DNA from: an uncultured Peptococcaceae bacterium
GTDB taxonomy: Bacteria > Bacillota > Limnochordia > Darwinibacteriales > Darwinibacteriaceae
Length of the DNA: 64,000 nucleotides
NCBI GenBank assembly: GCA_937988745.1
Contig: CALKAR010000207.1
Span: 3,394-67,393 of the forward strand
Reading direction: 5' to 3'
Shown: positions 14,492-63,388 of the stretch, piece after piece
Position numbering within the stretch: position 1 is the stretch's first letter
Layout: the number at the start of each line of letters is the position of its first letter
Notes under the pieces: generated by a model
The model's database searches: none
Told to the model about the DNA's origin: nothing
The model's input: the letters and a program-made list of their open reading frames with translations, nothing else
Program-made: the position numbers and the translations under genes

Positions 14492-16132
14492 TTAGCCCAA
14501 AAACAGCTCCAAGTCTCCTTCAACTGTGCTGATTGTTCCGATTCCAAACTGCTTGACAAGAACATCGGCCACATTAGGGGAAAGGAAAGCTGGTAGTGTT
14601 GGGCCAAGGTGGATGTTTTTCACACCCAGATATAAGAGGGCCAGTAGAACAATAACAGCCTTCTGCTCATACCAGGCAATGTTGTAAACAATTGGGAGCT
14701 CATTAATATCCTCGAGTCCGAAGACTTCTTTTAATTTCAAAGCAATCAGAGCTAATGAATAGGAGTCATTGCACTGTCCTGCATCCAGTACCCGCGGAAT
14801 TCCGCCAATATCACCCAAGGGAAGCTTGTTGTAGCGGTACTTGGCGCAGCCAGCAGTCAAGATAACAGTGTCTTCGGGAAGAGCCTCAGCAAATTCTGTG
14901 TAGTACGAGCGGCTCTTCATGCGGCCATCACAGCCTGCCATAACGAAGAATTTCTTAATGGCACCACTCTTTACCGCGTCGACAACCTGATCTGCCAGTG
15001 CGAAGACCTGCTCATGGGCAAATCCACCGACAATTGTGCCCGACTCTATTTCAGCAGGTGGTGGGCACTGTTTTGCCAGTTCAATGACTTCGCTGAAATC
15101 CTTCCAGCCGTCTTCGTCGGCTTCAATATGCTTGCAGCCCGGAAAGCCTGTGGCGCCACTCGTGAAGATGCGTTCCCTTACCTCTTCACTGCGAGGGGGC
15201 ACAATGCAGTTTGTGGTAAACACAATCGGGCCATTGAAAGACTCAAACTCGGTTACCTGCTGCCACCAAGCGTTACCGTAGTTTCCTGCAAAATGCTCAT
15301 ATTTCTTAAACGCTGGATAGTAGTGCGCCGGAAGCATTTCGCCGTGGGTATAAACGTCTACCCCTGTGCCTTCAGTCTGCTCCAAGAGCATTTCTAGATC
15401 CCGCAGGTCGTGACCGGAAATCAAAATCGCGGGGTTATTCCGCACACCGATGTTTACCTCGGAAATCTCAGGATTACCGTAAGTCTTTGTGTTAGCCTTA
15501 TCAAGGAGAGCCATGCCCTCAACACCAAACTTACCTGTCTCCAGGGTAAGCTGTGTAAGCTCATCGACAGTCAAGCTGTCATCTAAAGTAGCATTCAGCG
15601 CTTTATATATGAACCGATAAATGCCCTCATCTTCAAAACCTAGAACATAAGCATGGTGCAGATAAGCGGCCAAACCTTTGAGCCCGTAGGTAATCAATTC
15701 CCGCAGGGAACGAATGTCAGGATCAGAGGTAGCTAACACTCCTACAGTAAGGCCCTTTTCTTCCATCTCTTCCCGTGTTTCAACGGCAAATAGAGCTGCA
15801 TCGTGGAGGCCATCGGTATCTGCTCCATCAAGCAGATCATCTCTTACCGCCAATACATCTCTAATCTGTCTTTCTATGGCGGCATGATCAAAGTTAGCAT
15901 TGGTAATGGTCATAAAAAGGCTGTCAACCATCATCCGATGCAGTTCTAGACTGATTTCTTTGGTGCTGCGGCCTGACTCAACAATATTGGCGATGCCTTT
16001 GACGGCGTAGATCAAAAGATCCTGCAGGTTCGCCAGATCGGCATCCTTACCACATACACCTTTAATGGTACAGCCCGTTCCTCCCGCTGCTTCCTGGCAC
16101 TGGAAGCAGAACATGTTCATATTTGTACTCAT
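14492..16132 (-). CDS. hcp: Hybrid cluster protein / hydroxylamine reductase
   Basis: The N-terminal Cys cluster is [23 protein letters not shown], and the length is typical for Hcp. The start was moved to ATG 16132 ([11 protein letters not shown]), 6 nt after GAGGAGGAG. Confidence 0.95.
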
Positions 16133-16161
16133 TCCCAACTCCTCCTCACTCGAGACAATTA

Positions 16162-16178
16162 CTAAGTTACTCACTTAG
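16162..16178. promoter_or_regulatory. Palindrome CTAAGT-N5-ACTTAG in the hcp upstream region (candidate operator)
   Basis: It has perfect 6-bp arms and is centred 38 nt upstream of the hcp ATG. The regulator is unknown. Confidence 0.3.
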
Positions 16179-21789: not shown

Positions 21790-24700
21790 GTGCATGTTTT
21801 TCGAGTTGGAATCGACATTGGATCAACAACCGTCAAAACGGTCGTACTAGATCAAAATGGCGAAATGATCCATGCCGATTACCGCCGGCACTATTCTGAT
21901 GTGCGAACATCAGTGCTCAACTTATTGAAAATAACCTATGAAAAACTGGGCAATTTCCGCGCAACTTTCATGATTACCGGTTCTGGAGGCATTGGACTTG
22001 CCCAGGCCTGCGGTGCCGGCTTTATTCAGGAAGTTATCGCGGGTACTACTGCAATCAAAGCAGTCTGCCCCGAAACAGATGTGGCCATCGAACTTGGCGG
22101 TGAAGATGCCAAGATCATTTATCTCAGCGATGGTATGGAACAGCGTATGAATGGTACCTGCGCCGGAGGAACAGGCTCCTTTATCGATCAAATGGCCATC
22201 CTGCTGAATACAGATGCGCAGGGCCTAAATGAGCTGGCTAAGAATCATACCACGATCTACCCCATTGCAGCTCGATGCGGCGTATTTGCTAAGACCGATA
22301 TTCAACCCCTTCTCAATGAAGGTGCTGCTCAAGAAGATATAGCCGCCTCTGTCTTTCAGGCCGTTGTGATTCAAACCATCAGTGGTTTGGCCTGCGGTCG
22401 CCCAATTAGAGGCAACGTAGCATTTTTAGGCGGTCCTTTGTATTTTCTGTCAGAACTGCGCCAGCGATTCATTGAAACGCTGGAACTAACACCGAATCAG
22501 GTGATCTTCCCAGAAAATTCGCAGCTGATCAACGCTCTAGGCGCCGCTCTGTCCTCAGATGAAGAAGAGGCAGTCACCCTCGAAGAGTTCATCCAGAGAG
22601 CCGAAGCTGCAGCGGATGTTACCATGGAAGAAGCACCTCGTCTGGATCCCTTGTTTGAAAACGAAGCGGACTTAGAGGATTTCCGCAGCAGACAAGCTGC
22701 CCACAAAGTAAGACGAGGTGATCTTTCGCAGTTTTCCGGTGACTGTTATTTAGGTATCGACGCTGGTTCTACTACGACCAAATTAGCGCTGATCGACTCT
22801 GAAGGCAAGCTGCTCTATTCATACTACAGCAGCAACCACGGCAGTCCCTTAGATACCACAATCGAAGCCCTTCAGGATCTATACGCCAAGCTCCCTCCTG
22901 GAGCTGTAATCCGCGGTTCAACCGTGACCGGGTATGGTGAAGGGTTGATTAAAGCAGCGCTGCGCGTTGATATTGGCGAAATTGAAACAATAGCCCACTA
23001 TAAAGGCGCCGACTTCTTCTGTCCCGGTGTTGACTTCATCTTGGACATTGGCGGACAGGACATGAAATGTATGCGAGTTCGGGACGGAGTAATTGAAAGT
23101 GTTCTCTTGAATGAGGCGTGTTCCTCAGGATGCGGTTCATTCCTCGAAACGTTTGCTAAATCGCTGGACATGTCCATTGAGGAATTCGCCCAGGAAGCCC
23201 TGACAGCACAGCGCCCAGTAGATCTGGGTTCGCGCTGCACGGTGTTTATGAATTCCCGTGTCAAGCAGGCTCAGAAGGAAGGCGCCAGTGTGGCCGATAT
23301 TTCTGCCGGTCTGTCATATTCAGTCGTGAAGAATGCTCTTTTTAAGGTGATTAAGATCCGCAGGCCCGACGAACTCGGTGAAAAAATCGTTGTACAGGGC
23401 GGTACCTTTTACAACGATGCTGTCCTGCGTGCTTTCGAACGGCTCACCGGACGCACCCCCGTGCGGCCAGATATCGCAGGGATTATGGGAGCCTTCGGAG
23501 CTGCCCTCATTGCCAGAGAACGCTGCTCACAGAATCACCGCTCTACAATTTTAGGGCCGGATCAACTGGCTAACTTGGAAGTAAAAACATCTAAAGCCCG
23601 CTGCGGACTATGTGTAAACAATTGTCTGCTCACCATCAACCGTTTTGGAGAGGGCGAAAGGTTCATTTCAGGTAACCGCTGCGAGCGCGGCGCCGGCGGA
23701 AAACGTAATCCCAATAAACTAACCAACCTCTATGCAGCCCGTTATAAACGGCTGTTCGATTATGAACCGCTGCCGTTAGCGAAAGCACCCCGAGGAAAAA
23801 TTGGCATCCCACGGGTTCTTAATATGTATGAAGACTATCCGTTCTGGTTCACGTTCTTCACGAAGCTGGGTTTCCGTGTCGAACTCTCACCCGACTCTTC
23901 TAAGGCTGTCTATGAACAGGGTATCGAGACAATGCCCTCGGAGTCAGTCTGCTATCCAGGTAAGCTCACTCACGGGCATATCGTCAGCCTAATCGACCAG
24001 GGATGTACAACGATCTTTTATCCCTGTATCACTTTTGCGGCAGAGGAAGAGTCAAATGCGGACAATCACTTTAATTGTCCAATTGTCACATCGTATCCTG
24101 AAGTGCTGAAGAACAATGTGGAACGGCTGCGCGAGGAAAATATTAAGTTCCTAATACCCTTCCTTCCCCTGCACAATAAAGAAGGGCTTATTGAGCGCCT
24201 CATTGAAGAACTTGGCCCTGCTTTAGATCTTTCTAATGAGGAAATCGAGCAAGCTGTTGAAGCTGCTTGGGAAGAACAAAAACGCTTTAGAGCAGATATG
24301 CGGGCCATGGGCGAAGCAGCTTTGCAGCGCATTAAAGAAGAAGGTTTGACAGGGATTGTACTGGCGGGACGGCCATACCATATCGATCCTGAAATTAACC
24401 ATGGTATTCCTGAACTGATTAACTCGCTTGGAATGGCGGTTCTTTCAGAGGATTCTATTGCCCATCTCGGTCAAGTGGAACGACCATTGAGAGTGGTTGA
24501 TCAGTGGAGCTACCATTCCCGGCTATACGCAGCTGCCGACTTTGTCACAACCCAGCCTAATTTAGAACTAGTACAACTTAACTCCTTTGGCTGCGGCTTA
24601 GATGCGATCACCACCGATCAAGTCCAAGAGATCCTAGAAGCCAAGGGCAAGCTCTATACGGTGCTAAAAATCGACGAAGGCAGCAACTTAGGTGCCGCTC

Positions 24701-26031
24701 GCATCCGTCTGCGTTCTCTGCAGGCAGCAATCAGGGAACGGGCCAAAACACCAGAGCAGCTGGCCGAGAAATCGTATGCGTTCGAAAAACGCGTTTTTGA
24801 AAAATGGATGAAAGATGAACATACTATCTTGGCTCCCCAGATGTCGCCCATCCACTTCGACCTCATAGAGGCAGCTCTCCGCTGTTCAGGGTACAAGGTC
24901 GATGTACTGCCGTCAGTGGATCACGAATGTGTAGAAGAAGGCCTGAAATACGTCAATAACGATGCCTGCTATCCGGCCATCATTGTCATCGGACAAATCA
25001 TTTCAGCCCTGCGTTCTGGCAAGTACGATCTAAACAACACATCGGTTATGATTACGCAAACGGGAGGCCAATGCCGTGCCACAAACTACATCGGCTTGCT
25101 CCGCAAAGCCCTTCTCGAAGCCGGTTTTGGCCAAGTTCCAGTTATTTCACTGAGTGCACAGGGCTTAGAGAAGTCTGGGTTTAAGTTCACACCGTCTCTA
25201 ATTCACCGCGGCTTGATGGCAGCCGTTTATGGCGACGGTTTAATGCAGCTACTGCACCGGGTGCGGCCTTACGAAAAAGAACCTGGTTCGGCCAATAGAC
25301 TGTTCGAGAAGTGGAACGAAATCTGCAAGCGTTCTCTCTCAAGTCTCGATATAAAAACCTTCAAGCGCAACATCTATGAGATGGTACAGGAGTTCGACAA
25401 TCTGCCAATTATAAAGAAGGTAAAACCTCGAGTCGGAATTGTCGGTGAAATCTTAGTGAAGTACCATCCTACGGCCAACAATCAAGTGGTTGAAATCCTC
25501 GAAAAGGAAGGCGCTGAAGCTGTAGTACCGAACCTAATCGATTTCCTCAACTATTCCCTATTCGGGATGCAGTACAAGTACCGGTATTTAGCGGGACCGA
25601 AGCTGGATCAAGTATTGGCTCGTGCCGCAACCTCGGTCTTAGAGCTTTACAGAAAGCCGCTTAAGAACGCACTTGCTCAAAGCAAGCGTTTTACGCCGCC
25701 TCGCACCATCTACGAGCTGGCGCAAAAGGCAAAGAAAGTGCTTGCTTTGGGGCATCAGGCTGGAGAAGGCTGGTTCTTAACCGGTGAAATGGTTGACCTG
25801 ATCGAATCAGGCGTCGAAAACATCATCTGCATGCAGCCCTTTGCCTGCCTGCCAAACCACATTACAGGCAAGGGTATGATTAAGGAAATCAAGCGGCTCT
25901 ATCCACAGGCAAATATTGTGGCAATTGATTATGATCCAGGTGCAAGTGAGATCAACCAGTTAAACCGCATCAAGCTCATGCTATCAGCAGCGTTTGAAGC
26001 CATAGAATGTGAGAAAGCGGCCGCGTTTTAG
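21790..26031 (+). CDS. Giant fusion of two BcrAD/BadFG-type activase ATPase modules with a CoA-enzyme-activase (DUF2229) / dehydratase-like C-terminal region
   Basis: Two acetate/sugar-kinase-fold starts are present: [16 protein letters not shown] and [16 protein letters not shown]. Each is followed by a ..CGVFAK../..CTVFMNS.. Cys and GGP/GGT motifs. A Cys cluster CGLCVNNC...GNRCERG follows, and then a domain of about 800 aa. The start is GTG 21790 after AGGAGGA. Confidence 0.8.
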
Positions 26032-51614: not shown

Positions 51615-53042
51615 GTGAAGCACAATTTGAAGAGCATCGTAACAGCAGTTGTCGCACTACTAGTCTTATCCGGATTTGCTGCAGCAGCTGAAGTCTGGAG
51701 TACTGACATTGTAATTGTTGGCGGAGGAGCCGCGGGTCTTTCTGCAGCCGTTGAGGCGAGTCAAGCAGGGGCCGACGTTATGCTCTTTGAAAAACTCCCC
51801 ATCGTAGGCGGTTCTACCATGGTTTCCGGCGGAGGTATGAGTGGTGCCGGTCACAGATTCCAGCTTGCGGCTGGTATCACCAATGACAGCCCTGAGATTC
51901 ATCTGCAAGATATGCTCCGCGAAGGATACTACGAAAACGATCTAAGATTGGCGAAGCGGTTTACCGAAAACGCTGGCGCAGCCATTGACTGGCTTGCTGA
52001 CCTGGGATGTCAGTTTGAATTCCAGCCCAATTACCAAGAACACACTATACAGAGATTTGTCCGGTCTCATCCATATCCAGGTACCGGAATTGCCATTATC
52101 CAAACCTTAGAGAAGGCTGCCAAGGAAGCTGGAGCTAAAATCTATACCAATCATCTTGTAACTGAGCTCATTACCGATACTTCCGGTGCAGTCATCGGCG
52201 TTCAAGTTACCAAAAAAGACGGCAGCACCTTAAACGTTCTTGCTGATAGAGTGATTTTAGCAACCGGTGGGTTTGTGGGCAACGATGAGCTGCTCCACAA
52301 GTTTGCACCTGATATCATGGCTATGAATCCTAAAGTCGCTGGTGACACAAGACTCCAAGGTGAGGGCTTCTACCTTGCCCAAAAAGTCGGAGCATCTCTC
52401 CAAAACATGCACCACATCAAAGTCTATCCAACAGGATCGACAACAAAATCTGGTAAAGATGTTTACACCCGATTCTACGTAGCTTGCCTAGAAGGTGGTA
52501 TTCTTGTAAACAGAGAAGGTAAGCGTTTTGTAGACGAAAAAGCGGCCTTTGCCAGAGTTTATGACGAACTGGTTAAACAAACCGACGGCCGCATGTTCGT
52601 TATCTTTGACAGCAAGCAAGCCGAACGTGTTCTCCAAGCTGATACTCCCTTTATCCTAGGCTGGAGCAACGAACAAGTGGCAAAGGATATGGAAGAGAAC
52701 ACCCTAATCGGCCGCTTTGATGCAGTTTCCGACCTGGCAGCTGCTTACAATATTGATGCTGACGCATTAGCAGAAACCATTGCCAACTCGGAACTCTCCG
52801 AAGCGCCATTTTACGCTGTTGAAATCGGACCTAACATGATGTTCACTCTTGGTGGCATTCGCATCGATGATGATGCTCGGGTCCTTGATGTAAACGGTCA
52901 AGTTATTCCTGGCCTTTACGCTGCTGGTGAAGTTGCTGGAGCTGGACACGGCGGCAACTACATGAGCGGAAACTACGTAGCTTACGCTGTCGTATTTGGA
53001 CGGATCGCTGGTATTAATGCCGCAAATGACATCTTAAACTAA
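51615..53042 (+). CDS. Secreted FAD-dependent reductase of the flavocytochrome-c / fumarate-urocanate reductase family (FAD_binding_2)
   Basis: The signal peptide is MKHNLKSIVTAVVALLVLSGFAAAAEV. Motifs are DIVIVGGGAAGLSAA and, at the C-terminus, GLYAAGEVAGAGHGGNYMSGN. The start is GTG 51615, 7 nt after CAGGAGG. Confidence 0.8.
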   Translation: MKHNLKSIVTAVVALLVLSGFAAAAEVWSTDIVIVGGGAAGLSAAVEASQAGADVMLFEKLPIVGGSTMVSGGGMSGAGHRFQLAAGITNDSPEIHLQDMLREGYYENDLRLAKRFTENAGAAIDWLADLGCQFEFQPNYQEHTIQRFVRSHPYPGTGIAIIQTLEKAAKEAGAKIYTNHLVTELITDTSGAVIGVQVTKKDGSTLNVLADRVILATGGFVGNDELLHKFAPDIMAMNPKVAGDTRLQGEGFYLAQKVGASLQNMHHIKVYPTGSTTKSGKDVYTRFYVACLEGGILVNREGKRFVDEKAAFARVYDELVKQTDGRMFVIFDSKQAERVLQADTPFILGWSNEQVAKDMEENTLIGRFDAVSDLAAAYNIDADALAETIANSELSEAPFYAVEIGPNMMFTLGGIRIDDDARVLDVNGQVIPGLYAAGEVAGAGHGGNYMSGNYVAYAVVFGRIAGINAANDILN

Positions 53043-56077: not shown

Positions 56078-56103
56078 AATCCCAGGCCGATTACCCTGGG
56101 ATT
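56078..56103 (-). terminator. Weak hairpin terminator overlapping the 3' end of the DUF4382 gene
   Basis: On the minus strand AATCCCAGG-N8-CCTGGGATT is followed by TATCTTTGG. The stop codon lies in the loop. Confidence 0.4.
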
Positions 56104-56945
56104 TCTTTGCTCCACAAATTAGAACCTGGTTCCACAATAATCTTTTCGGCCTCCAGCTCCCAATGGAATTGATCCTTATATCTAACAAATGCTGATACCT
56201 CGTATGTGCCGGGTAGGAGGCGTTCGAGAGAAAATTCCAAGATACCGTTTTCAAAAACCAGTTCGGCGAAGGGCCGTGCGACACCATTTCGTCTCACGGA
56301 GAAACCAACTGTTAGATCACCAAGCACTCCATCGAGTTCTTCCAGTATGAATCTGGGCAGCTCAAGGCGGAAATCCAGCGATCCGAGCAAGTCACCATCT
56401 AATATCTTCAGCACCTGCGCCGGGTTCACAATAAACCCATTTTCACCCCGGGCGACAAACTGAGCCGCGTTGATATCAAAGATGAGCTCCACAACTGTAT
56501 CAGCCTGAACGACTATATCCACGTTCTTTACCTGCAGCTTGCCGCTGGGTACTTTCAGCACTGCCTCGGTGCCATCCCTGAGCACAACATAGTTCGCTCC
56601 AGCATCCTCGTTTAGGACTAAGCGAAATTCACTGTAACGGCCGGCAGGAATGGACTTTTCAACGAGTAATTGAGCCTGTGCTTGCAGATCGAACAAATTG
56701 ACCTTGGCACCGCCGCTTAGTTTTGCGATTACTTCCCAGTGCCCATCACGCTTGGCTTCGATCCGATTAATCGTCACCCAAATCTCGTCAATCTGCGAGA
56801 CGTCAGCCTCGGCACTCAAGGGCATCAAGCCATGAGTATCAGCCATGTACAAGCCTACCGTAGCCGTTGGTGATCCGCCTGTTCCTCCAAGGCAGCCTGT
56901 GAAGAGAAAGGCAGCTAGGAACAGAGCTATCCATTTAAGCTTCAC
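56091..56945 (-). CDS. DUF4382-family lipoprotein
   Basis: The lipobox is LFTGC, within MKLKWIALFLAAFLFTGCLGG. The DUF4382-like pattern is VGLYMAD...IDEIWVTINRIEAKRDGHWEVI......VNLFDLQ...LLVEKSIPAGRYSEFRLVL.....VVLRDG....LKVPSG. The start is GTG 56945, 8 nt after GGGGAG. Confidence 0.65.
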   Translation of the reverse strand: MKLKWIALFLAAFLFTGCLGGTGGSPTATVGLYMADTHGLMPLSAEADVSQIDEIWVTINRIEAKRDGHWEVIAKLSGGAKVNLFDLQAQAQLLVEKSIPAGRYSEFRLVLNEDAGANYVVLRDGTEAVLKVPSGKLQVKNVDIVVQADTVVELIFDINAAQFVARGENGFIVNPAQVLKILDGDLLGSLDFRLELPRFILEELDGVLGDLTVGFSVRRNGVARPFAELVFENGILEFSLERLLPGTYEVSAFVRYKDQFHWELEAEKIIVEPGSNLWSKEIPG

Positions 56946-57043
56946 AACATACACTCCCCGCATTGTAAGATACCCTACAATATACGGTGGGAGACGGTGA
57001 AACATTAGAGCAGGTAAACAGAACAATAAGTGTTACTTTTTTC

Positions 57044-57193
57044 CTATTTGGTCTTAGGACCCGATGCTGCTACCGCCAATTCCTCCAATACCTCGAGCTG
57101 TTGTTCCAGTTTCTTCTGCTGGACGTGCACGTAGCCTGTATACCCTAGAAGCAGCAGCCATACAATGCTGTATCCGACTACAAAGTAGACCAT
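57044..57193 (-). CDS. ccmD: CcmD-like small membrane protein (49 aa), absent from the ORF track
   Basis: My translation is MVYFVVGYSIVWLLLLGYTGYVHVQQKKLEQQLEVLEELAVAASGPKTK. It is one TM helix plus a charged coiled tail. ATG 57193 lies 6 nt after GGGGAG, and the gene sits directly downstream of ccmC. Confidence 0.65.
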   Translation of the reverse strand: MVYFVVGYSIVWLLLLGYTGYVHVQQKKLEQQLEVLEELAVAASGPKTK

Positions 57194-57218: not shown

Positions 57219-57890
57219 TTAATAGACCAGATTTTCCTTTAGCGCTTCTATCCTCTTTCGCAGGCGCAGTACGCGCAGCCGCATTCCCATCAGATATGCG
57301 TACAGTGCTGAGAAAGTAATAATGCTAGCAAATAAAGCGGTTTTCATCCTAGGATCCAGATTCATTCCCTCGCTAGTTACGACAACAGGATGGATCGAGC
57401 GCCACCATCTCGCAGAATAAAAAACCAGCGGCACATTAACAAAAGCGATAATCCCATAAACGGCTGCAAACCGCCGCCTACTGTCTGACACTCCCCCGCC
57501 CTGCAGTGCGATATATGCCACATACATAAACCACAGAACAAGAGTGGTCGTAAGCCGTGGATCCCAAGTCCACCAGGTATTCCAAATCGGATAGGCCCAG
57601 ATAGGCCCTGTCAGAAGTGTGCAGCTTATAAACACTACGCCGATCTCTGCTGAAGCAACCGCCACTTGGTTTACTTCTTCGCTGCGGCGCCACAAGAAGA
57701 GAATGCTGCAGATGAACACCACCACAAATGCGAGCATCCCTATCCATGCGGAACCAACATGGAAATAGAATACCTTCTGCACCACGCCCATAGTGCGTTC
57801 GATAGGCGCGTAGATACCTATGATGTAAATATTAGCTAGAATCAATCCAGCAAGAACAAGAAAACCAACATTTCTCCGATCAAATTCCAT
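57219..57890 (-). CDS. ccmC: Haem exporter / haem-handling protein CcmC
   Basis: Motifs are FYFHVGSAW (His), the WWD motif WNTWWTWDPRLT, and the second His in ARWWRSIHP. Confidence 0.9.
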   Translation of the reverse strand: MEFDRRNVGFLVLAGLILANIYIIGIYAPIERTMGVVQKVFYFHVGSAWIGMLAFVVVFICSILFLWRRSEEVNQVAVASAEIGVVFISCTLLTGPIWAYPIWNTWWTWDPRLTTTLVLWFMYVAYIALQGGGVSDSRRRFAAVYGIIAFVNVPLVFYSARWWRSIHPVVVTSEGMNLDPRMKTALFASIITFSALYAYLMGMRLRVLRLRKRIEALKENLVY

Positions 57891-57892
57891 GT

Positions 57893-58573
57893 CTAGCCCT
57901 CCAACACAAACTCAAACATGATAAGGGGCAGCACTGTAAAGAGAAGGTCATAAGCCCCTAGAAAGTAGACCCATCCCAAGGCACTTCTTCCCACTCCCAT
58001 AAGTGCTGAGTCTGAACAGCGCACCACCCCGATAAACAGAGGTATCAAGAGAGGAAACATCAATATCGGCAGCAGCATCCTAGCGTTCGGGATCTGAACG
58101 GTCATGGCCGACAGCATAGTGCCCACAGACGCCAATCCCCAACTGCCCAGCACAAGAGCAGTCAGGAGAAGCCCGATGTTCGCTCCCGAACAAGAAACAT
58201 CTGAAAAGATCCAAAGTACAGGCAGAATGATCAATTCAAGGACCAAGAGAACCGTGAAGTTGACCAGCGTCTTCGCAGTAAAGATTATACCTTTATCGCC
58301 CACGGCAATTAATAGTGCATCAATCGCACTGTTTTCGTTTTCGCGCGTAAACGAACGCTGTACCGCAAGTACTGCTGCAAAAAAGATTGTCACCCACAGT
58401 ACTGCCGGTAGAACCCGGCTCGTATCCACGTCTGTAAGCTGAAAAGCAAAGCTTGTGATAAATACAAGCATGATCCCAAAAACGACGGTGGAGAGAAAGT
58501 CATCGAGTTGGCGCAGTTCCTGCTTAAGATCTCTGAAGTATATAACCTTAGTTTTTTGCATGTATCTTCTCAT
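57893..58573 (-). CDS. ccmB: Haem exporter membrane protein CcmB
   Basis: It is a six-TM protein between ccmA and ccmC. Its start overlaps ccmA by 4 nt. Confidence 0.8.
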   Translation of the reverse strand: MRRYMQKTKVIYFRDLKQELRQLDDFLSTVVFGIMLVFITSFAFQLTDVDTSRVLPAVLWVTIFFAAVLAVQRSFTRENENSAIDALLIAVGDKGIIFTAKTLVNFTVLLVLELIILPVLWIFSDVSCSGANIGLLLTALVLGSWGLASVGTMLSAMTVQIPNARMLLPILMFPLLIPLFIGVVRCSDSALMGVGRSALGWVYFLGAYDLLFTVLPLIMFEFVLEG

Positions 58574-59202
58574 CGCGCACCTCTCCGGTTGACCTTACCT
58601 TCCGCTAATTCTAAATGTTCGTAGCGAAGGTCACCCAACAGATGAGGGTCATGGCTCACCACAATCTGTAAAGTTCTTGAGCGCAGCTCGCTCAAAACAC
58701 TGCGCAGCAGCTCCTGACCGCTGAAATCAAGTCCGGTGAAGGGTTCATCATACAAAATCAGCTTGGGCTCAATTAGAAGTGCCCGAGCCAGTACTAGTCT
58801 CTGCTGCATTCCTCGGGATAGAATCTTCGCACGCTCATGCCGGAATATCCAAAGGTCCATCAGCCGTAAGAGATTTTCAATGCGTCCTAAAGGCTTATCA
58901 TACAGCTCAGCAAAAAACTGCATGTTTTCCAGCACTGTTAGACTTTCGTACAGCATCGGCTCATGAGCCACATAACTGATAGACCCATGTTCAATACTGT
59001 AGGGGGATCCATTCCACAAAACCTGACCGCTGGTCGGTCTACTTAACCCCGCCAGTATGCGCAGCATTGTGGTCTTACCCCCGCCGTTTGCACCAGTCAC
59101 CACGATCAAATCACCAGTCGCAGCACTGAATGAAACGTCACGCAGAACCATACGGCTTCCCAATCTCTTTGAGAGGTTCAAGACTTCAAGCCGATCCGAC
59201 AT
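58570..59202 (-). CDS. ccmA: Haem ABC exporter ATP-binding protein CcmA
   Basis: Motifs are Walker A GANGGGKTT, the signature LSRGMQQR and Walker B LILYDEP. It overlaps the ccmF end by 17 nt. Confidence 0.9.
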   Translation of the reverse strand: MSDRLEVLNLSKRLGSRMVLRDVSFSAATGDLIVVTGANGGGKTTMLRILAGLSRPTSGQVLWNGSPYSIEHGSISYVAHEPMLYESLTVLENMQFFAELYDKPLGRIENLLRLMDLWIFRHERAKILSRGMQQRLVLARALLIEPKLILYDEPFTGLDFSGQELLRSVLSELRSRTLQIVVSHDPHLLGDLRYEHLELAEGKVNRRGAR

Positions 59203-61042
59203 TTTTATCCCCCTTTAAAAGGAGAAGTACACCAAGAAATACAACTGCGGCACCGGCCCAAATCCAGCTCACAAAAGCCAAACGTTTGATGTGAAGCTGT
59301 GCCGTTTGACCCTGCCACCCAGCCAAGTTGAGGTATAAATCTTCAAAAGGCGTGCTGAAGATCCCAACCTCTGTATAAGGCTGATCATCTGTTCCATAAA
59401 AGGTCTTGGAAGATACTAATGTGCCTGCCTTTTCTCCTCCCCGCATAATTTGGAGCGCCGTCTGCACGTTGTAGTAGTCTACACCCCACTGCACTTGAAG
59501 CCCGGGATATTCTAAAGCGTATCCGCCAAACTCGATGGTTTCACCTGGTTCTACCGTACGATAGACCTCCTCTACAAATATGGAAGAGCCAGTGATGCCA
59601 ATCAGCATAACGATTATGCCAATGTGGACCACAATACCACCTACCTGGCGCATCTTTGGCTGCCTGAGGAGGGCAATAGCTTGGCCTGCCAGAGCCCAAC
59701 CTGCCGCGGTAAAGCTGATGCTGCCTAATAGATGGCCGCCGCTGGCCCGATATGAAACCACACCCGCTGTGAGTCCTAGAAGAAATCTACCGATAAACCT
59801 ACGCCTTTCTACAGCAGGATAAGCACCCATCAGGAATACTAGGATGATAAAAAGCGGCACTGAAATGGCGTTGAAGAAACCTTCATCAAGGATCACTTCA
59901 CGTTTTAAGAAAGTGCGGGAGATTAAAGGGAACATCGTTCCCAGAAATACACCAGCAAAGATCAACATGAGGAGAATGATATTGACAAACAAGAACGCGG
60001 CTCTTCTTTGTCCATCTGCAGTGCGAGAAGCGGCTCCCAGAAGAACTCTCCGCCGGCTAATTCCGAGCCCAATAATGAAAATCGCCATGATGAGCAGCGC
60101 ACCGAGGAACACATTCCCCATTGTCTCATTAGAAAAGGCATGGACTGAATCAAGTACACCGCTGCGCGTTAGGTAGGTTCCAAAGATGGTCAGCAAGAAT
60201 GTGATTCCCGCCAGGCTGTAAGAGAGAAGTTCCTTTCCATAGAAATCATTTGGAACAAGCATTGCATGCAGGAACGCGGTAGCTGTCAGCCAAGGGAAGA
60301 GAGAGGCATTTTCCACCGGATCCCAAGCCCAATATCCACCCCATCCCAGTTCGTTATAGGCCCACCACCCTCCAGTGACGATGCCCAGTGTGAGCATGCC
60401 CCAGGCAAAAAGCGCCCAAGAGCGGCACTGCTTCATCCAAGTACCGTGTCCGGGGCTCCATATAAGCTCAGCAGCAGCTAAGGCAATCGGAATTAGACAA
60501 CCGCTGAAACCTAGGAAGAGAATGGGTGGATGGACGATCATCCCCACGCTCTGGAGCATGGGGTTAAGACCTGCCCCATCCCTAGGAATGGGATGAGTGG
60601 CCGCAAAAGGCTGAGACAAAAACAGCAGGATCACAGTGAACAGCACCCGCACTGTGTTGATCATTATATTGAGCTTAATATCCAAATGACCAGTCCGATA
60701 CTTTTTCGCTCCGTGTATATACCATAGAAACAGCGAAATAATCAGGTGCCACAGCAAGAGAGATCCTGCCTGGCCAGCCCAAAAAGCGCTGATTTTATAA
60801 ATAAGCGGCAGACTCCGCTGTGAAGAGCGAGCCACGTAAGCCAAACTGAAATTATCTGTCACGAACGCTATCATCAGAAGGCCTGCGGCAGCAGTGATGC
60901 TCCAAATAGAGACAAGGGACAACCATCGGCTCTGTCTCGATAGTACTTCTTTCTGCTTGTTGATGCCCCAAATGCCGAATAGGATTGCTCCAGAACCCGA
61001 AAAAAAGGTCAGCCACAGAAGGGCTGATCCAACGATGCTCAT
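59186..61042 (-). CDS. ccmF: Cytochrome c haem lyase subunit CcmF
   Basis: It is a 618-aa polytopic protein with the WWD motif WGGYWAWDPVENASLFPWL. Confidence 0.9.
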   Translation of the reverse strand: MSIVGSALLWLTFFSGSGAILFGIWGINKQKEVLSRQSRWLSLVSIWSITAAAGLLMIAFVTDNFSLAYVARSSQRSLPLIYKISAFWAGQAGSLLLWHLIISLFLWYIHGAKKYRTGHLDIKLNIMINTVRVLFTVILLFLSQPFAATHPIPRDGAGLNPMLQSVGMIVHPPILFLGFSGCLIPIALAAAELIWSPGHGTWMKQCRSWALFAWGMLTLGIVTGGWWAYNELGWGGYWAWDPVENASLFPWLTATAFLHAMLVPNDFYGKELLSYSLAGITFLLTIFGTYLTRSGVLDSVHAFSNETMGNVFLGALLIMAIFIIGLGISRRRVLLGAASRTADGQRRAAFLFVNIILLMLIFAGVFLGTMFPLISRTFLKREVILDEGFFNAISVPLFIILVFLMGAYPAVERRRFIGRFLLGLTAGVVSYRASGGHLLGSISFTAAGWALAGQAIALLRQPKMRQVGGIVVHIGIIVMLIGITGSSIFVEEVYRTVEPGETIEFGGYALEYPGLQVQWGVDYYNVQTALQIMRGGEKAGTLVSSKTFYGTDDQPYTEVGIFSTPFEDLYLNLAGWQGQTAQLHIKRLAFVSWIWAGAAVVFLGVLLLLKGDKNVGSA

Positions 61043-61045
61043 ACT

Positions 61046-61429
61046 CTATTCCCCTTCATATTTCGATGGACACTGCAGCATAAGCTTATTGGCGGAAAGG
61101 CCCGCCTCAGATAGAACACCTTCCAAAATGACCTCTTGAGCATGACTGAAGTTATCCGGTATCACACCCTGGTATCTGACGGGAAGTTCCGAATCCCCAT
61201 CAGACAGAGAGAAGCTCAGGAGGGGTTTTTGAGGGTCGTAGACTACAGTATCTTGGAGTACTTCACCCTTAATCCGGATTTTTTGACCATTCATTTGCAA
61301 CGAAGCTGCTTCTGAGATGGTGTAATAATAGACCGCCGCATTTTCAAGAGCCTGGAACGCCAAGAAACCGAGAAGCAGCATGGCACATACAGATGCGGCA
61401 ATAACTACAGGCTTCTTTCTCATCAGCAT
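61046..61429 (-). CDS. ccmE: Haem chaperone CcmE, variant with CxxxY (CPSKY) in place of HxxxY
   Basis: It has an N-terminal anchor, the OB-fold pattern IRIKGEV......YDP....L.F.L.D.......V.Y.G.IPD.F....EVILEG.L, and the C-terminal LMLQCPSKYEGE (codons 61058-61072). The start may be the third codon, ATG 61423, which has better RBS spacing. Confidence 0.85.
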   Translation of the reverse strand: MLMRKKPVVIAASVCAMLLLGFLAFQALENAAVYYYTISEAASLQMNGQKIRIKGEVLQDTVVYDPQKPLLSFSLSDGDSELPVRYQGVIPDNFSHAQEVILEGVLSEAGLSANKLMLQCPSKYEGE

Positions 61430-61461: not shown

Positions 61462-61490
61462 GAGGAAAGTGCCTCAAAAGCACTTTCCTC
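61462..61490 (-). terminator. Intercistronic hairpin between the dihaem protein gene and ccmE (partial terminator or mRNA stabiliser)
   Basis: An 11-bp perfect stem pairs GAGGAAAGTGC with GCACTTTCCTC around a 7-nt loop. On the minus strand a weak U-tract, TCTCGTGTTTAT, follows. Confidence 0.45.
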
Positions 61491-61500
61491 AGCTCTATAA

Positions 61501-62247
61501 TTAATGACCCTCGTGGCAGGGCGCGCAGTCCATCTTGCCGATGGTGTCATCTGCGTAGCCGCCTACGTGACATTCGTAGCAAGCCTTTGTCTCTTCACTC
61601 ATGGCTATGGTTGGTACAAATGTACCAGCTAAAACTTCGTTCATGTAAAGAGCTGTCTGTGCTGCCACATCACCAGTGAGAGCTCCGCAGCGTGGTCCCC
61701 GCTGACTGGCTTTCAAGCCAGAAGCCTTAACCCAGCGAGAAATAGAAACATGACACAAGGGAGAATCCGCGACGCTCTGCACTTCAGCGTTGAGCGGCAG
61801 AGGAGTCTGAGAATACCAGCCCATGACTTCATTAATAATAGCTGTCGCCTGCTGACTGCGGCCAAATACAAGGCCAACCGCCGCGGCGGCACCGTTTAAT
61901 GCACCACAAAGAGAACCCCAACCGGCAACGCCAGCTTTGCCAAAGTTCATCATCTCAGCCGGGATGTAGCAGAAAGGTTCACCTAATTCGGTAGTAAGGG
62001 CCCGGAAAGCAGCCTCACAGCAGCCCTGACCTTCACCGAAGAACTGGACACCAAGTTCCCTCACCTTTTCTACGTCCAAAGGCTTGTCAAAATACTCAAC
62101 CCAAGGATACTCAGGAAGTTCACGTCCTGCTGCTCCTGCCTTAGGTGCTAAAACCCCTAATCCCGAGCTAGCCAAAGCCAAACCGGCAGCCGCTCCACCT
62201 GCACTTACCAAGAACTCACGACGACTGATACGCTTCTTGTTATCCAT
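61501..62247 (-). CDS. Twin-arginine-signal, C_GCAxxG_C_C-type Cys-rich protein with two C-terminal CXXCH haem c sites (split-Soret cytochrome c-like)
   Basis: The Tat signal is MDNKKRISRREFLVSAGGAAAGLALASSGLGVLAPKAGAA. The Cys motifs are GQGCCEAAF, SLCGALNGA, PLCHVS and PRCGALTGD. The last 30 residues carry CYECH and CAPCH. At 248 aa it is close to the roughly 247 residues I recall for the Desulfovibrio desulfuricans split-Soret cytochrome. Confidence 0.7.
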   Translation of the reverse strand: MDNKKRISRREFLVSAGGAAAGLALASSGLGVLAPKAGAAGRELPEYPWVEYFDKPLDVEKVRELGVQFFGEGQGCCEAAFRALTTELGEPFCYIPAEMMNFGKAGVAGWGSLCGALNGAAAAVGLVFGRSQQATAIINEVMGWYSQTPLPLNAEVQSVADSPLCHVSISRWVKASGLKASQRGPRCGALTGDVAAQTALYMNEVLAGTFVPTIAMSEETKACYECHVGGYADDTIGKMDCAPCHEGH

Positions 62248-62296: not shown

Positions 62297-63043
62297 CTAC
62301 TGCTTCTTATCCTTTTTTCTAACCACCACCTTTCCCAAGAGGATGCTGAGCTCATACAACAGGAGCATCGGCCCAGCCATCAGCGTTTGAGAAATCACAT
62401 CAGGTGGCGTAAAAATTGCTGCAGCAACAAAAACCCCAAGAATTATGAACCTGCGATAGCGAATCAGCGTCTGCGGCGTCAGGATGCCTGCCCAGCAGAG
62501 CAGAACTACCACTAACGGCATTTGAAAGACTACACCAAAAGGCAGAATAATTCCTAAAACAAAGGACACATAGCTGCCAATAGAAATGACAGGCTGCAGT
62601 GTTCCACTGCCAAAACTCATAAAAAAACGGTAAGCTATTGGGACAATCACCTGATAGGCAAAGACTACGCCCCCTGCAAACATCAGGGCTGCAAAAGGAA
62701 TGCCAACAAACAGTGCCCACTTTTCCACATCATTTAAAGCTGGTGTAACAAAACCCACCAACTGGTACAGGATTACAGGCGATGCTGCTGCCAATCCGAA
62801 GACAAGAGCCAATTTAAGGTGAACAAAAAAGGCCTCGCCTGGATACAAGTACACCAGCGGACCTGGAAGTTCTGCTATGTACGCTACTATCCGGTCAGAT
62901 AAATAAAAGCCAACTACCACGGCAATAGCAACAGCCAGCAGCGTAATAATGATTCTCCGCCGCAGCTCAGTAAGGTGTTCTACCAAAGTCATGTCAGACT
63001 GTTGGTTCGCTTTTCTGCGCAACCTCTGGAGCATATCCACCAA
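62297..63043 (-). CDS. tatC: Sec-independent translocase subunit TatC
   Basis: The sequence is MTLVEHLTELRRRII.. followed by six TM segments (..FLSPGL-like, ..TPPDVISQ..). The exact start is uncertain: GTG 63043, ATG 63034 or ATG 62992. Confidence 0.9.
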   Translation of the reverse strand: MVDMLQRLRRKANQQSDMTLVEHLTELRRRIIITLLAVAIAVVVGFYLSDRIVAYIAELPGPLVYLYPGEAFFVHLKLALVFGLAAASPVILYQLVGFVTPALNDVEKWALFVGIPFAALMFAGGVVFAYQVIVPIAYRFFMSFGSGTLQPVISIGSYVSFVLGIILPFGVVFQMPLVVVLLCWAGILTPQTLIRYRRFIILGVFVAAAIFTPPDVISQTLMAGPMLLLYELSILLGKVVVRKKDKKQ

Positions 63044-63064: not shown

Positions 63065-63241
63065 TTATTCCTTGTTAGAAGCTTCTGAAGGGGAATCATC
63101 TGTAATTCCCTTGGCGGCGTCTCTAAATTCCCTCATCGCATTACCCACCGCTTTACCCATTTCAGGCAGCTTCGATGGCCCGAAAACAAGCAGGGCGATG
63201 ATCAGGATAACGACTAATTCGCCAAATCCAATTCTACCCAA
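63065..63241 (-). CDS. tatA: Sec-independent translocase subunit TatA/E
   Basis: MGRIGFGELVVILIIALLVFGPSKLPEMGKAVGNAMREFRDA has the canonical TatA N-terminus. The start was moved from the track ATG 63277 to TTG 63241, 8 nt after GGGAGG. Confidence 0.85.
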   Translation of the reverse strand: MGRIGFGELVVILIIALLVFGPSKLPEMGKAVGNAMREFRDAAKGITDDSPSEASNKE

Positions 63242-63388
63242 CTGTATTTCCTCCCTTGTGATCGTTTTATCATTCACATATTAAATTACCACTAATTAAC
63301 ATGCAAGTCAAGGAAATGCCCAGCTGTTCTGATTTTTGCAGGGTTCTTTCTTTTTGCGGAGAACTTACCGAAAACAGGAGGGGATCAT

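What the first reader, a model, noticed from the sequence alone, without database searches (positions are those of the whole stretch)
61501..62247. Tat-exported C_GCAxxG_C_C protein that also carries two haem c attachment sites (split-Soret-like)
The N-terminus has an unambiguous twin-arginine signal (SRREFL plus an Ala/Gly-rich h-region, codons about 62209-62226). The body has the C...CGAxxG...C...C pattern of the C_GCAxxG_C_C redox family. The last 30 residues contain CYECH and CAPCH (61504-61590). The Tat pathway implies cytoplasmic folding and cofactor loading, probably of an Fe-S centre. Ccm-dependent haem attachment normally acts on unfolded Sec substrates outside the membrane. This protein therefore seems to need both: a folded Fe-S domain exported by the adjacent TatAC, and a flexible C-terminal tail haemylated afterwards by the adjacent Ccm set. 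The size and layout match what I remember of the Desulfovibrio desulfuricans ATCC 27774 split-Soret cytochrome c, which has about 247 aa, two C-terminal haems and a [2Fe-2S] centre. Its physiological role is still unclear to my knowledge.
Basis: partly seen in the sequence, partly recalled or inferred. Interest (0 to 1): 0.65.

Follow-up and report, generated by a model that had tools for sequence, protein, structure and literature searches.

The report
Split-Soret cytochrome with own Tat/Ccm genes
This gene encodes a bacterial relative of the Desulfovibrio "split-Soret" cytochrome, a protein that needs an iron-sulfur cluster fitted inside the cell and two haems fitted outside it, and here it sits in one operon with exactly the two machineries (Tat export and Ccm haem attachment) needed to do that.

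Summary
ORF 61501-62247(-) encodes 248 aa with an SRREFL twin-arginine motif, a C_GCAxxG_C_C domain and two C-terminal CXXCH sites.

The interpretation also holds.
- It is a homologue of the D. desulfuricans split-Soret cytochrome c: PDB 1H21, E 1.3e-29, and the only structural match to the model (TM about 0.7).
- R9 and R10, four non-haem Cys and both CXXCH motifs are invariant in 40 homologues from many phyla.
- Desulfovibrio precursors about 95% identical to the crystallised protein also start with GRRDLI. So "Tat signal plus haem c" is a family trait, already noted in the literature for archaea and Shewanella.

What is new is the setting. The gene lies in a nine-gene minus-strand cluster, tatA-tatC-ssc-(conserved hairpin)-ccmE-F-A-B-C-D, and the Ccm set is the variant "System I*" (Cys-type CcmE, no CcmH or CcmG).
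- This order is kept in 14 of 15 related biogas-reactor Bacillota species, including Ca. Darwinibacter.
- It is absent around 63 other distant homologue loci.
- It recurs in a different order in two Bathyarchaeia loci.

Best model: Fe-S loading in the cytoplasm, Tat export, then haem attachment to the tail outside.

Verdict: new member of a known family, in an informative arrangement not found in the papers searched.

The parts
63065..63277 (-). tatA. The longest ORF is 70 aa. Gene calls on an identical contig start at 63241, giving 58 aa.
   Evidence: Pfam TatA_B_E 72.6 bits. NCBIfam NF011430 84.2 bits against a cut-off of 62. Gene call on L001.
62297..63043 (-). tatC
   Evidence: Pfam TatC 209 bits. 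TIGR00945 201 bits against a cut-off of 132.7.
61501..62247 (-). ssc: split-Soret-type dihaem cytochrome c precursor, 248 aa
62128..62247 (-). Twin-arginine signal peptide, about residues 1-40. SRREFL lies at 62209-62226. The putative AGA|A cleavage site was not tested.
   Evidence: Direct reading of the sequence. R9 and R10 are invariant in 40 homologues. The generic HMMs are below threshold.
61654..62022 (-). C_GCAxxG_C_C domain, residues 76-198, with four invariant Cys (C76, C114, C165, C187) inferred to ligate a [2Fe-2S] cluster.
   Evidence: PF09719 50.7 bits. Invariance. All four align to Cys of 1H21 and P0268.
61567..61581 (-). Haem c attachment motif 1, CYECH (residues 223-227)
61513..61527 (-). 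Haem c attachment motif 2, CAPCH (residues 241-245)
61462..61490 (-). Conserved 13-bp hairpin between ssc and ccmE. It is probably an intra-operon attenuator, terminator or mRNA-stabilising element.
   Evidence: Terminator-like hit. Fold -24.4 kcal/mol, z -3.4. Present in all 16 loci, 95.7% of cells paired, 6 pairs with compensatory change, 0 of 500 shuffles reach the observed value.
61046..61429 (-). ccmE, the Cys-type variant (C-P-S-K-Y in place of H-x-x-x-Y), with an N-terminal membrane anchor.
   Evidence: Pfam CcmE 85.9 bits. Sequence LMLQCPSKYEGE. System I* literature: PMC3601427, PMC9084895.
59186..61042 (-). ccmF (haem lyase, CcmF/NrfE family)
   Evidence: Pfam Cytochrom_C_asm plus CcmF_C. 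TIGR00353 E 7.5e-107.
58570..59202 (-). ccmA (ABC ATPase)
   Evidence: Pfam ABC_tran. Its position is conserved in the clade.
57893..58573 (-). ccmB
   Evidence: Pfam CcmB 100.4 bits.
57219..57890 (-). ccmC
   Evidence: Pfam Cytochrom_C_asm. TIGR01191 E 3e-38.
57044..57193 (-). ccmD (49 aa, a single transmembrane helix)
   Evidence: TIGR04391 CcmD_alt_fam 33.2 bits against a cut-off of 24. Conserved after ccmC in 10 other clade loci.

Best explanation
The gene encodes a split-Soret-type cytochrome c: an extracytoplasmic, low-potential redox protein carrying one [2Fe-2S] cluster and two c-type haems. It is made by a two-compartment assembly line encoded in the same operon.

Proposed steps:
1. 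In the cytoplasm, the helical C_GCAxxG_C_C domain folds and receives its cluster on C76, C114, C165 and C187.
2. The SRREFL signal peptide takes this folded domain through the co-encoded minimal TatAC translocase. A hydrophilic, haem-free C-terminal tail of about 35-40 residues trails behind it.
3. Outside the membrane, the co-encoded System I* machinery attaches haem to CYECH and CAPCH. CcmABCD loads haem onto the Cys of CcmE, and CcmF is the lyase.
4. The tail then packs onto the core. H227 and H245 are the proximal haem ligands. The conserved H166 and H248 are probably the distal ones.
5. The protein probably dimerises, as in 1H21.
6. A conserved hairpin after ssc probably sets a higher output of tatAC-ssc than of the ccm genes.

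What is shown: homology, fold, motif conservation and gene linkage.
What is inferred: cluster binding, the export route, the order of events, the distal ligands, and the physiological role. I take that role to be electron shuttling at the outer face of the membrane, with partners unknown.
For: Homology and fold:
- 1H21 matches by sequence and is the only fold match to the model.
- The RR pair, four non-haem Cys, two CXXCH, H166 and H248 are invariant or nearly so.
- Desulfovibrio precursors 92-95% identical to the crystallised Fe-S/dihaem protein carry GRRDLI signals. A protein of this family known to hold both cofactors is therefore RR-targeted.
- The model core has pLDDT above 90, while the haem tail (about residues 215-248) has pLDDT 58-81. 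This fits a tail that needs haem to fold.

Gene linkage:
- tatA-tatC-ssc-ccmEFABC(D) is kept in 14 of 15 species-level relatives at only 46-73% identity of the biogenesis proteins (91-65% in the near-identical L005).
- ccm, tatC, tatA and ssc are clustered independently, in a different order and orientation, in two Bathyarchaeia loci.
- tatA lies next to ssc in a Halobacteriota archaeon.
- ssc is the only RR or CXXCH ORF in the window.

Topology:
- CcmE has an N-terminal anchor with RKK on the inside, so its haem-handling domain faces outward.

Literature:
- System I* from Desulfovibrio matures cytochromes c without CcmH or CcmG (PMC3601427).
- Tat requires Fe-S insertion for NrfC, NapG and QcrA export, and tolerates hydrophilic unstructured segments up to about 100-120 aa (PMC6708511).
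Against: - There is no experimental evidence for this protein.
- The generic Tat-signal HMMs score below threshold, and no TatP or SignalP run was possible.
- Tat quality control rejected an scFv with an unstructured tail in E. coli (PMC6708511), so a floppy Cys-rich tail might be a liability.
- A cytochrome c fused to a Tat signal was exported only after haem insertion (Sanders et al. 2001, as cited in PMC6708511).
- One clade member (L014) has no tatAC directly upstream.
- 63 other distant loci, and the Desulfovibrio locus, show no tat or ccm linkage. Adjacency is therefore not a family-wide rule.
- I could not check whether this tatAC serves other clients elsewhere in the genome.
Confidence: 0.7

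Rival explanations
1. The cassette is not dedicated to Ssc. On this view the tatAC and ccm genes are the organism's general, housekeeping Tat and cytochrome c maturation systems, serving several clients encoded elsewhere. They sit beside ssc for co-regulation or by descent. The two-compartment maturation of Ssc would still hold, but the "one client, own machinery" reading would not.
For: - Only 64 kb of the genome is visible.
- In Desulfovibrio, ssc is unlinked to tat and ccm, and those organisms make many cytochromes.
- L014 keeps ssc-ccm without an adjacent tatAC.
- The Natranaerofaba genome encodes Ssc alongside other c-type cytochromes (PMC8359318).
Against: - The nine genes stay together as a unit in 14 of 15 species, while all flanking genes change.
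- The same three functions cluster independently in Bathyarchaeia.
- No other RR or CXXCH ORF occurs in the window.
- The papers read on this biogas lineage report no cytochrome c.
Confidence: 0.35
2. The four conserved Cys do not bind an Fe-S cluster in this lineage. They might form disulfides, bind another metal or act as a thiol redox site. Tat would then be used only because the helical domain folds too fast for Sec.
For: - The biochemical function of the wider C_GCAxxG_C_C family is unknown, and some members are annotated as selenoproteins (names; PMC9312934 lists the family).
- Cluster binding cannot be computed here.
Against: - All four Cys align one-to-one with the non-haem Cys of 1H21, whose title reports "a novel iron centre".
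- They are invariant across phyla.
- Tat targeting is the usual hallmark of cytoplasmic cofactor insertion (PMC6708511).
Confidence: 0.07
3. The RR motif is not functional and the protein is exported unfolded by Sec like ordinary apocytochromes c, or haem is attached in the cytoplasm before Tat export.
For: - Tat-signal HMM scores are below their cut-offs.
- Sec is the rule for cytochromes c.
- An engineered Tat-cytochrome c needed haem attached before export (PMC6708511).
Against: - The RR pair is invariant in 40 diverse homologues, in an S/T-R-R-x-F-L context, with a weakly hydrophobic Gly/Ala h-region and a basic c-region.
- tatAC lies immediately upstream.
- No system is known that assembles Fe-S clusters outside the membrane (general knowledge).
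- The CcmE and CcmF active sites face outward, and no cytoplasmic haem lyase is encoded in the window.
Confidence: 0.05

Closest known systems
Split-Soret cytochrome c (Ssc) of Desulfovibrio desulfuricans ATCC 27774 (PDB 1H21; NCBIfam NF047622)
   Same: - Same fold: the only PDB match, TM about 0.7.
- 33-34% identity over the mature protein.
- Four aligned non-haem Cys and two C-terminal CXXCH.
- A conserved C-H dipeptide (C165-H166).
- An RR signal peptide on close Desulfovibrio precursors.

   Different: - It scores 145.8 bits against the equivalog cut-off of 400.
- The mature part is about 40 residues shorter, lacking an insertion of about 20 residues after the PLPL segment, and it ends three residues after the last haem His instead of in a 14-residue tail.
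- The Desulfovibrio gene stands alone, with no tat or ccm neighbours.
- The host is a Bacillota bacterium from biogas reactors, not a sulfate reducer.
C_GCAxxG_C_C family (Pfam PF09719 / TIGR01909)
   Same: It passes the Pfam gathering score. The four Cys are in the family positions, with the CGAxxG motif.
   Different: - It falls below the TIGR01909 cut-off, 35.7 against 47.4.
- It carries an RR signal and a dihaem tail, which the typical family members of about 140 aa lack.
Variant cytochrome c maturation System I* (ccmEFABCD of Desulfovibrio and archaea; Allen 2006 and Goddard 2010 as cited in PMC3601427 and PMC9084895)
   Same: - CcmE has CxxxY instead of HxxxY.
- No ccmH, ccmG or ccmI in the cluster.
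- ccmD is present, as in Desulfovibrio.

   Different: - It is found here in Bacillota.
- It is fused into one transcription unit with tatAC and one client cytochrome.
[quoted passage not shown]
Bacillus subtilis phoD-tatAd-tatCd (a minimal TatAC translocase encoded with its client; general knowledge; minimal TatAC systems reviewed in PMC6708511)
   Same: A two-component TatAC translocase of a Bacillota organism is encoded in an operon with a client protein.
   Different: The client here is a redox protein that needs a second, post-export cofactor machinery, which is also in the operon.
Tat substrates that finish cofactor loading outside the membrane, such as clade I nitrous oxide reductase NosZ with copper inserted in the periplasm, and Rieske proteins (general knowledge)
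   Same: Export by Tat is followed by a further maturation step on the outer side of the membrane.
   Different: Here the outside step is covalent haem attachment by Ccm, which normally acts on Sec-exported unfolded apocytochromes.

Membership tests
Split-Soret cytochrome c family (archetype PDB 1H21) | Significant sequence similarity over the whole mature protein | tested here: met
   phmmer against the PDB: E 1.3e-29, residues 66-247 against 36-235. BLASTP against precursor P0268: 34% identity, E 8e-36.
Split-Soret cytochrome c family (archetype PDB 1H21) | Passes NCBIfam equivalog model NF047622 | tested here: not met
   145.8 bits against a cut-off of 400. The model is named for Desulfovibrio sequences (SptSoretCytCDesul) and its high cut-off suggests a narrow scope. 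This is a distant family member, not an equivalog.
Split-Soret cytochrome c family (archetype PDB 1H21) | Same three-dimensional fold | tested here: met
   AlphaFold2 model with pLDDT 83.4. Foldseek against the PDB gives 1h21_A as the only hit with E below 0.001 (3.1e-10, TM 0.69/0.71).
Split-Soret cytochrome c family (archetype PDB 1H21) | Two CXXCH haem c sites near the C-terminus | tested here: met
   C223-H227 and C241-H245, invariant in 40 homologues.
Split-Soret cytochrome c family (archetype PDB 1H21) | Four further Cys that ligate the non-haem iron centre | tested here: met
   C76, C114, C165 and C187 align with the four non-haem Cys of 1H21 and are invariant. Actual cluster binding is not testable here.
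Split-Soret cytochrome c family (archetype PDB 1H21) | Split Soret absorption band, stacked haems in a dimer | not testable with these tools
   This needs purified protein, or a multimer model with haem.
C_GCAxxG_C_C (PF09719 / TIGR01909) | Profile match above the curated cut-off | tested here: inconclusive
   Pfam 50.7 against 27, which passes. TIGR01909 35.7 against 47.4, which fails.
Tat (twin-arginine) substrates | S/T-R-R-x-F-L-K consensus, weakly hydrophobic h-region, basic c-region | tested here: met
   S-R-R-E-F-L at residues 8-13, a Gly/Ala-rich h-region, and K35 in the c-region. The RR pair is invariant in 40 homologues.
Tat (twin-arginine) substrates | Recognised by generic Tat-signal profile models | tested here: not met
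   PF10518 17.5 against 22.7. TIGR01409 10 against 16.7. These short models are weak, and no TatP or SignalP was available.
Tat (twin-arginine) substrates | Export depends on TatC and on the RR pair | not testable with these tools
   The only support is genetic linkage: tatA-tatC lie immediately upstream in 14 of 15 relatives and in Bathyarchaeia.
Cytochrome c maturation System I* (variant Ccm) | CcmE with Cys (CxxxY) in place of the haem-binding His | tested here: met
   ...LMLQCPSKYEGE at the CcmE C-terminus. The Bathyarchaeia CcmE has the same CPSKYEGE.
Cytochrome c maturation System I* (variant Ccm) | No CcmH or CcmG | tested here: inconclusive
   Neither is in the cassette or among the window ORFs that were scanned against family libraries. 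The rest of the genome is not visible.

The most novel reading that the evidence does not exclude
In these uncultured biogas-reactor Bacillota, which are relatives of Ca. Darwinibacter (MBA03/DTU010, proposed syntrophic acetate oxidisers), the nine-gene tatAC-ssc-ccmEFABCD cassette would be a self-sufficient, one-client module. Ssc would be the only c-type cytochrome and the principal or only Tat client. The cell would keep eight biogenesis genes for this single 25-kDa Fe-S/dihaem protein because it is the cell's extracytoplasmic electron outlet, for example towards partner methanogens or external acceptors. A corollary is that the cassette would be a natural minimal system showing that Ccm can attach haem to a folded protein exported by Tat.
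Probability: 0.2. Interest if true: 0.7.

Novelty: new member of a known kind. Interest (0 to 1): 0.45.

Why it matters
Split-Soret cytochromes are the clearest natural case of one polypeptide that needs a cofactor inserted in the cytoplasm (Fe-S, hence Tat) and a cofactor attached outside (haem c, by Ccm). This dual requirement is visible in annotations. To my knowledge it has never been dissected experimentally, and the physiological role of the family is still unknown.

The cassette found here puts the client and both machineries into about 6.2 kb. That gives a compact construct for asking three questions:
- Does Ccm act on a Tat-exported folded substrate?
- What does Tat quality control accept?
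- In what order are the cofactors loaded?

It also flags a conserved c-type cytochrome, absent from the papers read here, in a lineage that can dominate anaerobic digesters. This bears on how those bacteria dispose of electrons.

Tried and rejected
- Abreu et al. 2003, the 1H21 paper, could not be read because it is not held. The identity of the cluster ligands therefore rests on alignment to the only four non-haem Cys in the aligned part of 1H21.
- I looked for conserved redox-partner genes around the cassette. In the close clade nothing beyond the nine genes is conserved. The DUF4382 protein, the NYN protein, the phosphatase and the exported FAD reductase of the window do not recur.
- In distant phyla the recurrent neighbours are regulators (MarR, sigma-54 activator, histidine kinase). 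In Ignavibacteria and Kryptonia they are an NrfC-like ferredoxin, NrfD and a GcvH-like protein. This is suggestive of a quinol-linked module but is not present here.
- I considered recent horizontal transfer of the cassette. Its G+C content (0.48-0.51) matches that of the window (0.49), so there is no compositional signal.
- I considered that the Bathyarchaeia cluster is a transferred copy. Its proteins are only 24-35% identical and the gene order differs, so independent assembly is more likely.
- An Rfam scan of the ssc region gave only a sub-threshold chance hit to STnc420 (22 against 70 bits) over the hairpin.
- Pfam did not recognise the 49-aa ORF as CcmD, giving only a FUN14 artefact. NCBIfam TIGR04391 did recognise it.
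Cys-Cys and His-haem geometry could not be measured.
- A whole-genome census of cytochromes and Tat clients was not possible with the tools.
Full report
**1. The observation**

The minus-strand ORF 61501-62247 is real. It has an ATG start preceded by AAGGAGG, ends in TAA, and encodes 248 aa.
- Residues 8-13 are S-R-R-E-F-L (62209-62226).
- They are followed by a Gly/Ala-rich hydrophobic stretch and a basic c-region (PKAGAA).
- Pfam C_GCAxxG_C_C matches residues 76-198 at 50.7 bits against a cut-off of 27.
- The short generic Tat-signal models are below threshold: PF10518 gives 17.5 against 22.7, and TIGR01409 gives 10 against 16.7.
- The Tat assignment therefore rests on the motif, its conservation and the context.

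**2. What the protein is**

- phmmer against all PDB sequences finds 1H21 at E 1.3e-29, aligned over residues 66-247. Nothing else is significant.
- The NCBIfam split-Soret model NF047622 matches at E 1.6e-42. The score of 145.8 bits is far below that model's equivalog cut-off of 400.
- An AlphaFold2 model built on a 40-sequence alignment has mean pLDDT 83.4. The core is above 90, and the last 35 or so residues, which carry the haem sites, are at 58-81.
- Foldseek against the PDB returns 1h21_A as the only match: E 3.1e-10, TM 0.69/0.71, 33% identity over 230 columns.

The alignment covers 40 homologues named in their sources as Bacillota, Planctomycetota, Calditrichia, Hydrogenedentes, spirochaetes, Thermoanaerobaculaceae and a Halobacteriota archaeon.
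- Invariant columns are R9, R10, C76, C114, C165, H166, C187, C223, C226, H227, C241, C244 and H245.
- H248 is kept in at least 90% of sequences.
- The four non-haem Cys align one-to-one with the four non-haem Cys in the aligned part of 1H21, whose PDB title reports a novel iron centre.

At 50% clustering the family comprises 357 clusters at E ≤ 1e-10.

**3. The Tat-plus-haem feature belongs to the whole family**

I reconstructed residues 36-235 of 1H21 from the printed alignment and searched with them.
- The search retrieves Desulfovibrio precursors 92-95% identical to the crystallised protein.
- These are 279 aa long and begin MNIGRRDLICGLGG...AKA/AGQ.
- Close relatives (92-95% identical) of the crystallised Fe-S/dihaem protein are therefore themselves made with a twin-arginine signal.

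Across three retrieved sets, 79-84% of full-length homologues show both an RR motif and at least two CXXCH, even with a strict regular expression. Most of the "failures" are motifs such as SRRDCL, or a subgroup with T-R-K-E-F.

This has been noted in print.
- SO0939 is listed among predicted Tat substrates of Shewanella oneidensis (PMC3623810).

I found no experimental treatment of how the two pathways cooperate. That is a statement about the searched library and my own knowledge.

**4. The surroundings**

The gene sits in a tight minus-strand cluster:

| Gene | Coordinates |
|---|---|
| tatA | 63065-63277 |
| tatC | 62297-63043 |
| ssc | 61501-62247 |
| ccmE | 61046-61429 |
| ccmF | 59186-61042 |
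| ccmA | 58570-59202 |
| ccmB | 57893-58573 |
| ccmC | 57219-57890 |
| ccmD (49 aa; TIGR04391, 33.2 bits against 24) | 57044-57193 |

- Gaps between genes are 2-71 nt, or the genes overlap.
- CcmE ends ...LMLQCPSKYEGE. It is the Cys-type (CxxxY) variant, and no ccmH or ccmG is present.
- This is the "System I*" described for archaea and Desulfovibrio. It was shown to mature cytochromes c in E. coli without CcmH and CcmG (PMC3601427; PMC9084895).
- Within the 64 kb window, ssc is the only ORF with two CXXCH or with an N-terminal RR motif.

**5. Is the linkage meaningful?**

A scan of one genome per species (GTDB representatives) returned 80 loci.
- The 15 closest loci (62-91% Ssc identity) are all Bacillota metagenome bins. 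Most come from biogas reactors. They include Peptococcaceae bacterium 1109 and Ca. Darwinibacter acetoxidans.
- All 15 keep ssc-ccmE-F(-A-B-C) as far as their contigs reach, and 14 have tatA-tatC directly upstream.
- The biogenesis proteins are mostly only 46-73% identical.
- ccmD follows ccmC in ten of these loci.
- None of the other flanking genes of the window is conserved.

The 65 more distant loci (below 46% identity, many phyla) show no tat or ccm neighbour, with one exception.
- Two Bathyarchaeia loci carry ccmF, ccmC, ccmE (again CPSKYEGE), ccmA, ccmB, tatC, tatA, an Lrp regulator and an RR-bearing ssc.
- The order and orientation differ, and the proteins are 24-35% identical.

A Halobacteriota archaeon has tatA 530 nt downstream of ssc. 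The Desulfovibrio gene stands alone.

Recurrence of the same three functions in unrelated lineages, in different arrangements, is good comparative evidence that Ssc needs both machineries. The window's G+C content is uniform across the cassette.

**6. A conserved RNA hairpin**

Directly after the ssc stop codon lies a 13-bp hairpin (61462-61490).
- It is terminator-like in the scan, folds at -24.4 kcal/mol, and has a z-score of -3.4.
- All 15 related loci have the equivalent CTGAGGAAAGCG-loop-CGCTTTCCTCAG element.
- On the alignment, 95.7% of cells pair and six pairs show compensatory changes. No shuffle out of 500 reaches the observed values, and slid controls pair at only 42-57%.
- Some copies are followed by a U-run, others are not.
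- I read it as an intra-operon attenuator or 3' stabiliser that lets the cell make more tatAC-ssc message than ccm message. This is an inference.

**7. Mechanism**

The best-supported model is sequential.
- The Fe-S cluster is inserted into the folded helical domain in the cytoplasm.
- The domain is exported by the co-encoded TatAC, with the hydrophilic tail of about 35-40 residues still free of haem.
- Haem is then attached covalently to the two CXXCH sites outside the membrane by CcmABCD-CcmE-CcmF.
- The tail then docks, with H166 and H248 as likely distal ligands.

Supporting general knowledge, as reviewed in PMC6708511:
- Tat refuses NrfC, NapG and QcrA that lack their Fe-S clusters.
- Tat tolerates hydrophilic unstructured segments up to about 100-120 residues.

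Cautions from the same review:
- An scFv with an unstructured tail was rejected.
- An engineered Tat-cytochrome c was exported only once haem was attached.

The CcmE membrane anchor has RKK at its N-terminus, which places haem handling outside. No cytoplasmic haem lyase is encoded nearby. Whether the signal peptide is cleaved at AGA/A or kept as an anchor is open. The physiological role is not established for any family member.
- Context in other phyla includes an NrfC-like ferredoxin plus NrfD in Ignavibacteria and Kryptonia.
- In Pyrodictium a cytochrome b is associated with ssc (PMC8105010).
- These point to an electron carrier linked to membrane quinol modules.
- No such partner is encoded beside the cassette here.

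**8. Comparison, novelty and score**

- The protein is a new, fairly distant (34%) and shorter member of a known, structurally characterised family.
- The Ccm set is a known variant.
- A minimal TatAC encoded with its client has a precedent in B. subtilis phoD-tatAdCd (general knowledge).
- What I did not find described is the fusion of all three into one conserved cassette, and its presence in the MBA03/DTU010 ("Ca. Darwinibacteriales") type of biogas bacteria. The papers read on that lineage do not mention cytochromes c.
- That the window organism belongs to this order is suggested only by Ssc-locus similarity (91% to bin AS20ysBPTH_44, 66% to Ca. Darwinibacter). It was not tested with marker genes.
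- I rate it a new member of a known kind, with interest 0.45. Its main value is a compact, testable natural system for Tat-then-Ccm maturation, plus a lead on the electron-transfer equipment of an abundant uncultured lineage.

Noticed in passing
window 61462-61490 (-); equivalents in L005-L019: A hairpin directly after the ssc stop codon is conserved in sequence and structure (CTGAGGAAAGCG-loop-CGCTTTCCTCAG) in all 16 loci. It has 6 compensatory pairs. Its stem sequence is more conserved than expected for a plain terminator. It matches no Rfam family.
   Followed up: yes
L053 1265-8786 and L056 (Bathyarchaeia MAGs): ccmF, ccmC, ccmE (Cys-type), ccmA, ccmB, tatC, tatA, an Lrp-type regulator and an RR-bearing ssc are clustered independently, in a different order and orientation from the Bacillota cassette.
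   Followed up: partly
window 51615-53042 (+): A 475-aa FAD_binding_2 flavoprotein, like a fumarate reductase or flavocytochrome flavin subunit, has a Sec-type signal peptide (VKHNLKSIVTAVVALLVLSGFAAAA) and lies 8.5 kb from ssc. It is a possible extracytoplasmic redox partner, but it does not lie next to the cassette in other species.
   Followed up: partly
homologues P0033, P0040, P0043, P0046, P0049, P0079, P0122, P0134 (Calditrichia and unnamed metagenome sequences): A subgroup of about 370-aa Ssc homologues carries C-terminal PF18962 (type IX secretion sorting) and PF13860 domains. It has T/S-R-K-E/D-F instead of R-R in the signal, which suggests a cell-surface-displayed form with a variant Tat motif.
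   Followed up: no
L062, L067, L068, L051, L082, L084 (Ignavibacterium, Ca. Kryptonia): ssc lies within about 1-4 kb of genes for an NrfC/HybA-like four-cluster ferredoxin, an NrfD-type membrane subunit and GcvH-like proteins. In the Ignavibacterium loci a MarR regulator lies directly upstream. This hints at a quinol-linked partner module in those phyla.
   Followed up: partly
L087 7968-8399 (Halobacteriota archaeon): A tatA gene lies about 530 nt downstream of the archaeal ssc homologue P0041.
   Followed up: no
window 56091-57026 (-): A DUF4382 protein with a lipoprotein-like N-terminus (…LFTGCLGG) lies directly downstream of ccmD on the same strand. It is not conserved in the other clade loci.
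   Followed up: partly
window 14492-16174 (-) and 21790-26031 (+): The window also encodes a hybrid-cluster protein (Prismane family, 601 bits) and a 1413-aa BcrAD/BadFG-type CoA-enzyme activase fused to DUF2229. Both are typical of strict anaerobes.
   Followed up: no
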